This document shows positions 9,721 through 9,960 of a DNA stretch of 64,000 nt, piece by piece. The stretch is from Dictyostelium discoideum (Eukaryota), in contig CM000151.3 in NCBI GenBank assembly GCA_000004695.1, positions 3,680,001-3,744,000 of the forward strand. The letters run 5' to 3'. Both the position numbers and the translations under genes were made by a program. The notes below the pieces were generated by a model, which saw only the letters and a list, made by a program, of their open reading frames with translations, did not search any database and was not told the origin of the DNA. Numbering within the stretch: position 1 is the first letter of the stretch; every line of letters starts with the position of its first letter.

Positions 9721-9770
9721 CTATAAAAAACACTCGTATTTAATACGACACAAGAAATTTAAACAAGCAC

Positions 9771-9855
9771 CCCAAGTTAAATTAATATGTGAGGATTTTT
9801 TTTTTTTTTTTTTTACATATTAATTTAACTTGGGGTGCTTGTTTGAATTTTTTGT
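9771..9855. repeat. Perfect 30-bp inverted repeat (hairpin) AAACAAGCACCCCAAGTTAAATTAATATGT / ACATATTAATTTAACTTGGGGTGCTTGTTT with ~25-nt T-rich loop
   Basis: Read directly from the sequence. The arms are exact reverse complements and have unusually high complexity for this intergenic DNA. A TATAAAAAA box plus a short palindrome CGTATTTAATACG lie about 40 bp upstream. Confidence 0.9.
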
Positions 9856-9960
9856 CCCTTTGTATTGAAAAAATAATAATAATCATTAGTGATGTTAAAC
9901 ACAACTAATGATTTTTTTTTTTAATATTAAAGAATTTCTTGGTTTTATTTTTTTTTTTTT

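What the first reader, a model, noticed from the sequence alone, without database searches (positions are those of the whole stretch)
9721..9860. Perfect 30-bp inverted repeat with TATA box upstream: hairpin RNA / miRNA-like precursor candidate
The arms AAACAAGCACCCCAAGTTAAATTAATATGT and ACATATTAATTTAACTTGGGGTGCTTGTTT are exact reverse complements, separated by a 25-nt U-rich loop. A 30-bp perfect stem of mixed composition cannot arise by chance in low-complexity AT-rich spacer. A TATAAAAAA box and a mini-palindrome CGTATTTAATACG sit 30-50 bp upstream. Dictyostelium makes Dicer-dependent small RNAs from hairpins, so this could be an unannotated hairpin small-RNA locus. Alternatively it could be a foldback element terminus or a protein-binding palindrome.
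Basis: seen in the sequence. Interest (0 to 1): 0.55.

Follow-up and report, generated by a model that had tools for sequence, protein, structure and literature searches.

The report
Young long hairpin in Dictyostelium spacer
A real, single-copy, near-perfect 130-bp DNA palindrome in a Dictyostelium discoideum intergenic spacer that would fold into a long RNA hairpin like the young microRNA genes of this amoeba, but which has drifted neutrally and has no expression evidence, so it is a plausible unannotated small-RNA locus and nothing more yet.

Summary
Arms 9761-9790 and 9815-9844 are exact reverse complements. The spacer is 24 nt, not 25. Pairing extends to 41 bp plus a 10-bp outer stem. It is one of the two most extreme hairpins in the 64 kb and far beyond chance.

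The window is D. discoideum chromosome 2. The hairpin lies in a ~0.8-kb non-coding module between two + strand genes. Module and hairpin are absent from the syntenic D. citrinum locus, identical in a second D. discoideum assembly, and present at ~92% identity in a diverged "D. discoideum" assembly. There the stem shows one compensatory pair, two G·U/G-C switches and four disruptions. That is indistinguishable from neutral drift.

The other extreme hairpin (13196-13330, - strand), 3.4 kb away, is probably the published ddi-mir-7104. In the diverged strain it is a plain 50-nt tandem repeat. Local inverted duplications therefore arise repeatedly here.

Best reading: a young inverted duplication that makes a Dicer-ready hairpin on the + strand, i.e. 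a proto-miRNA or hairpin-siRNA candidate. It is absent from the published miRNA sequences I could check. Expression was not testable. An inert palindrome is almost as likely.

The parts
9750..9790 (+). 5' arm of the hairpin (41 nt; perfect core 9761-9790)
9791..9814 (+). Spacer/loop GAGGA+T19 (24 nt). In the RNA fold GAGGA pairs with U's, leaving a 14-nt U loop. It is T22 in the diverged strain.
9815..9855 (+). 3' arm of the hairpin (41 nt; perfect core 9815-9844). G9845 and U9851 take part in the two G·U wobbles on the + strand.
9739..9748 (+). Outer stem, 5' half.
9860..9869 (+). Outer stem, 3' half
9683..9720 (+). T38 run directly upstream (T30 in the second D. discoideum assembly; a C-interrupted T tract in the diverged one). 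It is promoter-like in the sense of the T-rich pri-miRNA start-site motif, but it does not end in G.
   Evidence: PMC6161686 section 2.8 and Table S3
9722..9730 (+). TATAAAAAA, a TATA-like box. It reads TCTAAAAAA in the diverged strain, so it is not conserved.
9100..9912 (+). The ~0.8-kb module specific to the D. discoideum complex that carries the hairpin. It holds exon-like GC-richer blocks (9150-9298, 9451-9581) split by a GT..AG intron-like gap, with no ATG and no homologue. It has a 5-nt indel in the diverged strain and is absent from D. citrinum.

Best explanation
The feature is a young, single-copy inverted duplication, a ~130-bp DNA palindrome. It arose in the D. discoideum lineage after the split from D. 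citrinum and before the split of the diverged 'D. discoideum' lineage represented by L003. It lies inside a ~0.8-kb non-coding module in the spacer between two + strand genes.

Shown: the palindrome, its uniqueness in all DNA reachable here, its lineage distribution, its neutral-rate drift, and the recurrent birth of local inverted repeats in this stretch.

Inferred: when the + strand is transcribed, the RNA folds into a 56-bp almost perfect hairpin. Transcription could start at the T-rich tract immediately upstream, or at the T24-G tract at 9074-9098 that opens the module, or come from read-through. Such a hairpin is a natural substrate for the nuclear Dicer-like DrnB/RbdB processor and would yield 21-nt small RNAs, probably two adjacent duplexes or a heterogeneous siRNA-like population. 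On that reading it is a proto-miRNA or hairpin-siRNA locus of the 'young, long, perfect hairpin' type described for dictyostelids. It is not yet under detectable selection, and no target could be identified.
For: Structure: searches show an extreme, non-chance hairpin. The free energy is -0.46 kcal/mol/nt, against the -0.2 threshold quoted in PMC6161686 section 2.3.

Strand: the + strand folds 15.6 kcal/mol better, because both arm mismatches are G·U there. In the diverged strain the same two pairs are G-C.

Persistence: the hairpin is retained in the diverged lineage at -53 kcal/mol, with no indels in 107 stem nt and one C-G to A-U double change.

Lineage-specific module: it is absent from syntenic D. 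citrinum. This matches the pattern reported for D. discoideum miRNAs, where the orthologous intergenic regions are shorter and lack the whole locus, and where long perfect hairpins are read as young miRNAs (PMC11014262).

Neighbour: the only comparable hairpin in the window (13196-13330, - strand) carries T31-G-T10-G immediately upstream on its strand. That matches the published ddi-mir-7104 start-site motif on chromosome 2. The window lies in the AX4 chromosome 2 duplication.

Other classes: it is not coding, not a tRNA and not an Rfam family.
Against: No expression data of any kind could be consulted.

The arms are absent from every published D. discoideum miRNA or hairpin sequence available to me, despite repeated deep small-RNA sequencing of this species.

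Arm divergence between lineages (8-9%) equals that of the flanking non-coding DNA. Covariation is not significant: 177 of 500 shuffles reach the observed score, and four pairs are broken in the diverged strain.

The TATA-like box is not conserved. The upstream T tract does not fit the 'T-rich ending in G' motif strictly.

No candidate target was found in the 64 kb, and the arms are not a recent copy of any annotated coding sequence.
Confidence: 0.42

Rival explanations
1. It is an inert DNA palindrome. It is a by-product of a local inverted-duplication process (template switching or fold-back repair in AT-rich spacer DNA). It is never transcribed or processed to any meaningful extent and is simply decaying.
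For: The arms drift at a neutral rate and covariation is not significant. Four stem pairs are broken in the diverged strain.

The same stretch shows other lineage-specific inverted repeats. One is a 40-bp perfect AT-only palindrome at 9956-9995/10043-10082, absent from the diverged strain. Another is hairpin 2, whose counterpart in that strain is 4.9 direct tandem copies of a 50-nt unit.

The hairpin is absent from the published miRNA sets I could check.
Against: D. discoideum intergenic DNA is short and often transcribed, and a 56-bp perfect hairpin RNA would be diced if made (inference). There is a + strand folding asymmetry. A near neighbour with the same origin is probably a bona fide miRNA. 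The absence of indels in the stem over ~8% divergence is only a weak point.
Confidence: 0.38
2. It is one of the D. discoideum miRNA loci already published (Avesson et al. 2012) whose sequences I could not access, so it is known and not new.
For: Twenty-seven loci are known. Only 14 intergenic ones are listed with coordinates, and the 2012 paper is not held.
Against: It matches none of the five chromosome 2 loci listed in Table S3 once the window is anchored on mir-7104. The hairpin would sit about 3.6 kb from mir-7104, near chr2:2,341,931-2,342,036. It matches no hairpin or mature sequence in the texts and supplements that are held.
Confidence: 0.07
3. It is a terminus or remnant of a foldback or miniature inverted-repeat transposon, for example thug-like.
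For: It is palindromic. Its module is present or absent between species. thug-S elements are known sources of D. discoideum miRNAs.
Against: There is a single copy in the 64-kb window and in three further 22.7-kb loci. No flanking target-site duplication is visible. The species-specific segment (~0.8 kb) is much larger than the palindrome and has no terminal repeats of its own. It is unrelated to hairpin 2.
Confidence: 0.06
4. It is a cis-acting DNA or RNA element for the flanking genes, such as a protein-binding palindrome, an insulator, or a 3'-end or termination structure.
For: It lies between two tandem + strand genes. A second small hairpin followed by T11 lies just downstream at 9880-9923.
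Against: It is absent from D. citrinum, where both flanking genes and the downstream promoter are conserved. The small downstream hairpin is deleted in the diverged strain. Arms of 41 bp are far longer than any binding site. It lies about 870 nt past the upstream stop codon.
Confidence: 0.04

Closest known systems
Dictyostelium discoideum intergenic miRNA genes (ddi-mir-1176, ddi-mir-1177, ddi-mir-7104; DrnB/RbdB-dependent, Pol II pri-miRNAs)
   Same: It is an intergenic hairpin of ~100-190 nt with a T-rich tract upstream. It is species-restricted and sits in a module missing from the orthologous spacer of a sister species. The stem is long enough for two adjacent 21-nt duplexes, as in mir-1180 and mir-7102 (PMC6161686, PMC11014262).
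   Different: There are no reads, no DrnB dependence and no mapped start site. The upstream tract ends in C-TATAAAAAA, not G. The stem is unusually perfect and the loop is a T19 run.
Young miRNAs from unusually long, nearly perfect hairpins (dfi-mir-1190, ppo-mir-1226 in PMC11014262; plant proto-MIRNA genes born by inverted duplication, from my own knowledge of Allen et al. 2004)
   Same: It is a perfect or near-perfect long stem, lineage-specific, born by inverted duplication, and evolving without detectable constraint.
   Different: In the plant model the arms derive from the future target gene. Here no parent gene or target was found.
Hairpin-RNA (hpRNA) endo-siRNA loci of animals (my own knowledge)
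   Same: It is a long perfect inverted repeat that would give heterogeneous siRNAs, not one precise duplex.
   Different: Those hairpins are several hundred bp long and have known targets. This stem is only 56 bp.
thug-S-derived multicopy miRNA loci of D. discoideum
   Same: It is a palindromic source of small RNAs in the same organism.
   Different: thug-S is a multicopy transposon. This sequence is single copy in all DNA I could examine.
ddi-mir-7104 candidate (hairpin 2, window 13196-13330, - strand)
   Same: It lies in the same window, has the same size class and the same absence from D. citrinum, and also arose by a local inversion or duplication.
   Different: The sequences are unrelated. 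Hairpin 2 is younger: it is a tandem direct repeat in the diverged strain. It also carries the published start-site motif.

Membership tests
Dictyostelium miRNA gene (high-confidence criteria as applied in PMC6161686) | Hairpin precursor with folding energy below -0.2 kcal/mol/nt | tested here: met
   -68.7 kcal/mol over 150 nt = -0.46 kcal/mol/nt
Dictyostelium miRNA gene (high-confidence criteria as applied in PMC6161686) | At least 60% of the miRNA duplex paired in the precursor | tested here: met
   41 consecutive pairs (39 Watson-Crick plus 2 G·U) and a 10-bp outer stem, so any 21-nt duplex from the stem is fully paired
Dictyostelium miRNA gene (high-confidence criteria as applied in PMC6161686) | [quoted passage not shown] | not testable with these tools
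Dictyostelium miRNA gene (high-confidence criteria as applied in PMC6161686) | Small RNAs lost and pri-transcript accumulated in drnB- cells | not testable with these tools
   No expression data are available
Dictyostelium miRNA gene (high-confidence criteria as applied in PMC6161686) | T-rich tract of up to 26 nt ending in a G start site upstream of the hairpin | tested here: inconclusive
   A T38 run at 9683-9720 is followed by C-TATAAAAAA, and the first G comes 16 nt later. A T24-G tract at 9074-9098 opens the module about 650 nt upstream. T runs are common in this genome.
Dictyostelium miRNA gene (high-confidence criteria as applied in PMC6161686) | Listed among published D. discoideum miRNA loci | tested here: not met
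   Arm 8-15-mers are absent from the full-text library and from the supplements of PMC6161686, PMC11014262 and PMC4894637. The Avesson 2012 list is not held, so the check is incomplete.
Conserved structured RNA (selection on base pairing) | Significant covariation, or sequence conservation above the neutral background | tested here: not met
   There is 1 compensatory pair, 3 one-sided changes and 4 disruptions; 177 of 500 shuffles reach the observed score. Arms are 91-92% identical against 90-92% for neighbouring non-coding DNA. Only two distinct lineages are available, so power is low.
Rfam RNA family | Score at or above a family's gathering threshold | tested here: not met
   There are no hits at gathering thresholds. 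Sub-threshold hits go only to unrelated perfect-hairpin miRNA models, e.g. MIR9486 at 44.8 bits against a threshold of 100.
Foldback / MITE / thug-type transposon | Multiple dispersed copies | tested here: inconclusive
   It is single copy in the 64 kb and in three 22.7-kb loci. The whole D. discoideum genome could not be searched.
Foldback / MITE / thug-type transposon | Target-site duplication flanking terminal inverted repeats | tested here: not met
   No direct repeat flanks 9739-9869, apart from trivial A runs, or the 9100-9912 module
Proto-miRNA by inverted duplication of its target gene | Arms homologous to a protein-coding gene | tested here: not met
   No protein among 5.8 billion shares three 5-residue words with any frame of the arms. 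No 21-mer with up to 4 mismatches occurs elsewhere in the window. Non-coding or diverged parents are not excluded.
Dictyostelium Pol III-type / Class I small RNA gene | Upstream DUSE element (CCCAYAA-like, from my own knowledge) and no internal T-run terminator | tested here: not met
   There is no CCCA motif in 9600-9760. The T19 in the loop and the T6 at 9848-9853 would terminate Pol III (terminator rule from established knowledge).

The most novel reading that the evidence does not exclude
The hairpin is an unannotated, DrnB-dependent small-RNA locus. Together with its neighbour (probable ddi-mir-7104, which is still a plain 50-nt tandem repeat in a diverged D. discoideum lineage) and an even younger AT-only palindrome, this 4-kb stretch would be a natural time series of miRNA gene birth by local inverted duplication in an amoebozoan. 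The three stages would be a raw palindrome, a neutral Dicer substrate and an established miRNA.
Probability: 0.22. Interest if true: 0.5.

Novelty: new member of a known kind. Interest (0 to 1): 0.33.

Why it matters
Only about 27 miRNA loci are known in D. discoideum, and almost none are conserved even among sister species, so how they arise is an open question. If this hairpin yields small RNAs, it adds a locus. Together with the neighbouring probable mir-7104 and its tandem-repeat counterpart in a diverged strain, it would also give a concrete, datable example of miRNA birth from local inverted duplications. If it yields none, it shows that extreme perfect hairpins arise and persist neutrally in this genome. 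That is a useful caution for structure-based miRNA prediction.

Tried and rejected
1. Rfam at gathering and permissive thresholds gave no family. The only sub-threshold hits were generic perfect-hairpin miRNA models.

2. The tRNA scan found none.

3. The idea that the upstream exon-like block 9180-9581 is a gene with the hairpin in its 3' UTR is rejected. The block has no ATG and no homologue, not even a self-hit, among 5.8 billion proteins. It has a 5-nt indel, and its substitutions spread evenly over codon positions in the diverged strain.

4. The idea that the arms derive from a coding gene or from a local target found no support.

5. The other low-energy windows (53590-53750, 470-630) are GC-richer coding repeats with ordinary z-scores and are not hairpin loci.

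6. The mir-7095 start-site motif is not in the window. The T14-G-T tract at 45390 has no hairpin downstream.

7. The AX4 gene model could not be located by exact-protein look-up, so there are no direct chromosome coordinates.

8. The lncRNA supplement of PMC5295588 was truncated before chromosome 2, so there was no transcript check.

9. Avesson et al. 2012 and Glöckner et al. 2001 are not held.

10. Exact 24-mer scans of the metagenome and prokaryote genome collections gave nothing, as expected.

11. The bacterial promoter/terminator scanner was not used, because it does not apply to this organism.

Full report
OBSERVATION

The sequence is as described. AAACAAGCACCCCAAGTTAAATTAATATGT lies at 9761-9790 and its exact reverse complement at 9815-9844. 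No other copy occurs in the window with up to 3 mismatches, and none is expected by chance. The spacer is 24 nt (GAGGA + T19), not 25.

The repeat extends beyond the reported arms. The arms run 9750-9790 and 9815-9855, 41 nt at 95% complementarity. A 10-bp outer stem pairs 9739-9748 with 9860-9869 across a 4-nt bulge.

As RNA the + strand folds at -68.7 kcal/mol (z = -15.4) and the - strand at -53.1. The difference arises because both arm mismatches are G·U on the + strand and C·A on the other.

Three checks show it is beyond chance.
- Only two perfect inverted repeats of at least 16 nt with complex arms exist in the 64 kb. Twenty Markov-simulated windows never exceeded 19 nt.
- In an RNAfold scan of 6,388 windows the two loci score -69.1 and -66.5. 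The mean is -14.7, the sd 7.3, and the third locus scores -49.
- The next loci in that scan are ordinary GC-richer coding repeats.

CONTEXT

The window is Dictyostelium discoideum. The G-patch gene at 13739-16390 encodes a protein 100% identical to a D. discoideum protein. Its AX4 entry carries two accessions on the 8.48-Mb chromosome 2, so it lies in the AX3/AX4 duplication.

The hairpin lies in a 1.58-kb spacer between two + strand genes. One is an IPT/TIG-domain gene ending at 8878. The other is a multi-exon gene starting at 10459.

Upstream of the hairpin are two exon-like, GC-richer blocks at 9150-9298 and 9451-9581, joined in frame across a GT..AG gap. I judge them non-coding for three reasons.
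- There is no ATG.
- No protein among 5.8 billion resembles the translation, not even an annotation of the block itself.
- In a diverged strain the block carries a 5-nt deletion, and by my count its substitutions fall about equally on all three codon positions.

Rfam and tRNA scans are negative. Permissive Rfam hits are only generic perfect-hairpin miRNA models far below threshold.

COMPARATIVE EVIDENCE

Exact-protein look-ups gave me three syntenic loci.

L002 is a second D. discoideum assembly. It is 99.2-99.5% identical over the compared stretch, the hairpin is identical, and only the upstream T run differs in length.

L001 is D. citrinum. The flanking genes align at 80-87%, but window 8901-9913 has almost no counterpart. 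The spacer is about 0.8 kb shorter. Nothing in the 22.7-kb locus resembles the arms or the exon-like block.

L003 is labelled D. discoideum but is diverged. The downstream gene aligns at about 92-94% and the spacer at about 83%. It retains the hairpin, which folds at -53 kcal/mol on either strand.

Between the window and L003 the stem changes are as follows.
- One double, compensatory change: C9773-G9832 becomes A-U.
- Two G·U to G-C switches, at the pairs 9760-9845 and 9754-9851.
- One loop-proximal G·U to A-U change.
- Four disrupted pairs in L003.

The shuffle control is not significant: 177 of 500 shuffles reach the observed score. Arm identity (91-92%) equals that of the adjacent non-coding blocks (90-92%). 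The only distinction is the absence of indels in 107 stem nucleotides.

My rough expectation under neutrality for eight substitutions at paired positions is about two wobble-preserving changes and about 0.1 compensatory pairs. That is close to what is observed. I therefore cannot claim selection on the structure.

The TATA-like box reads TCTAAAAAA in L003. The mini-palindrome loses its C-G ends. The small downstream hairpin at 9880-9912 is deleted.

A RECURRENT LOCAL PROCESS

The second extreme hairpin (13196-13330; a stem of about 45 bp; -78.7 kcal/mol on the - strand) is also absent from D. citrinum. In L003 it is not a hairpin at all. It is 4.9 direct tandem copies of a 50-nt unit. In the window, one unit is followed by inverted copies.

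A 40-bp perfect AT-only palindrome at 9956-9995/10043-10082 is missing from L003.

Local inverted duplications therefore arise de novo in this DNA. This explains how a perfect 30-bp stem can exist without implying function.

LINK TO KNOWN miRNAs

On the - strand, immediately upstream of hairpin 2, lies T31-G-T10-G (13482-13440). Table S3 of Liao et al. 2018 (PMC6161686) gives the start-site motif of ddi-mir-7104 as T14-G-T9-G on chromosome 2 at 2,338,3xx. That position is inside the duplicated region by my recollection of its coordinates. The predicted pri-miRNA is 396 nt long.

The tract upstream of hairpin 2 is the only one in the window that fits the motif through its final G. The one-T difference is within the inconsistencies of that table, where the strings are 23-26 nt and the mir-7104 coordinate span is only 16 nt. 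I take hairpin 2 to be ddi-mir-7104 with about 85% confidence; no mature sequence was available to confirm it.

Anchoring on it places hairpin 1 about 3.6 kb away. None of the listed chromosome 2 loci (mir-1178, 7095, 7098, 7104, 7105) lies there.

Hairpin 1 also matches none of the following:
- the hairpin sequences of the 8 new loci in the Liao supplement;
- the sequences of mir-1177, mir-7097 and candidates D1-D3 printed in Meier 2016;
- anything in the full-text library.

The original 2012 list is not held, so a small residual chance remains that hairpin 1 is already known.

WHAT IS KNOWN ABOUT SUCH LOCI

Liao et al. report 27 miRNA loci, all DrnB-dependent, with capped Pol II pri-miRNAs that start after T-rich tracts.

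Edelbroek et al. 2024 (PMC11014262) report three relevant points. Apart from mir-1177, D. discoideum miRNAs are not conserved even in D. firmibasis. For some, the orthologous spacer is shorter and lacks the whole locus. Unusually long hairpins with few or no mismatches are read as newly evolved miRNAs.

Hairpin 1 fits this description structurally and evolutionarily.

INTERPRETATION

Shown: a real, single-copy (in the DNA available) palindrome specific to the D. discoideum complex, born by inverted duplication and drifting neutrally.

Inferred: if the + strand is transcribed, the 56-bp hairpin would be diced by DrnB/RbdB into 21-nt RNAs. That would make it a proto-miRNA or hairpin-siRNA locus. 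I give this 0.42.

The main rival, at 0.38, is an inert palindrome. It is favoured by the neutral evolution and by the hairpin's absence from the published sets.

The minor rivals are:
- an already published miRNA (0.07);
- a foldback or MITE remnant (0.06), for which no extra copies or target-site duplications were found, although the whole genome could not be searched;
- a cis element for the neighbouring genes (0.04), which is unlikely because D. citrinum lacks the hairpin while keeping both genes and the downstream promoter.

No target or parent gene was found.

NOVELTY AND VERDICT

At most this is a new member of a known kind, the young dictyostelid hairpin small-RNA loci. It is modestly interesting on its own. 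It is somewhat more interesting as part of a 4-kb stretch that shows three ages of inverted duplication next to a probable established miRNA. Public small-RNA data would settle the question.

Noticed in passing
window 13196-13330 (- strand); motif 13440-13482: This is the second extreme hairpin in the window (stem about 45 bp, -78.7 kcal/mol on the - strand). T31-G-T10-G lies just upstream on that strand, matching the published start-site motif of ddi-mir-7104 on chromosome 2. It is probably that known miRNA and is absent from D. citrinum.
   Followed up: partly
L003 9452-9694 versus window 13196-13330: In the diverged 'D. discoideum' assembly the hairpin-2 region is 4.9 direct tandem copies of a 50-nt unit that contains the mini-palindrome CCTCTGTTAGAGG. 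The hairpin, and so the probable mir-7104, seems to have been born by inversion within a tandem repeat.
   Followed up: partly
window 9944-9995 / 10043-10094 (perfect core 9956-9995 / 10043-10082): This is an AT-only inverted repeat with 40-bp perfect arms (52 nt at 94%) around an A29 run, 100 bp downstream of the finding. It is absent from the diverged strain and from D. citrinum, so it is a still younger inverted duplication.
   Followed up: partly
window 9880-9923: A small hairpin, AATCATTAGT-13 nt-ACTAATGATT, is followed by T11 and looks like a terminator. Its 3' arm is deleted in the diverged strain.
   Followed up: partly
window 9100-9600: Exon-like GC-richer blocks with a GT..AG intron-like gap have no start codon and no homologue anywhere. 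They are absent from D. citrinum. This could be a decayed orphan gene or the body of a non-coding transcript that may carry the hairpin.
   Followed up: partly
L003 (GCA_054859385.1, JBTAPF010000011.1:2381169-2403933): An assembly labelled D. discoideum differs from the window by about 6-8% in a gene and about 17% in spacers. That is far more than I would expect within D. discoideum (my recollection, not checked here). It may be a cryptic lineage or a mislabelled species.
   Followed up: no
window 63596-63727 / 63855-63911: A (TAA)n tract faces a (TTA)n tract about 130 nt away, giving 57-nt 'perfect' inverted repeats made of microsatellite. This is low-complexity sequence, not a designed hairpin.
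   Followed up: no
window 13739-16390: The AX4 protein for the G-patch (septin and tuftelin-interacting protein homologue) gene has two RefSeq accessions. This places the whole window inside the AX3/AX4 chromosome 2 duplication, so every feature here is present twice in AX4.
   Followed up: partly
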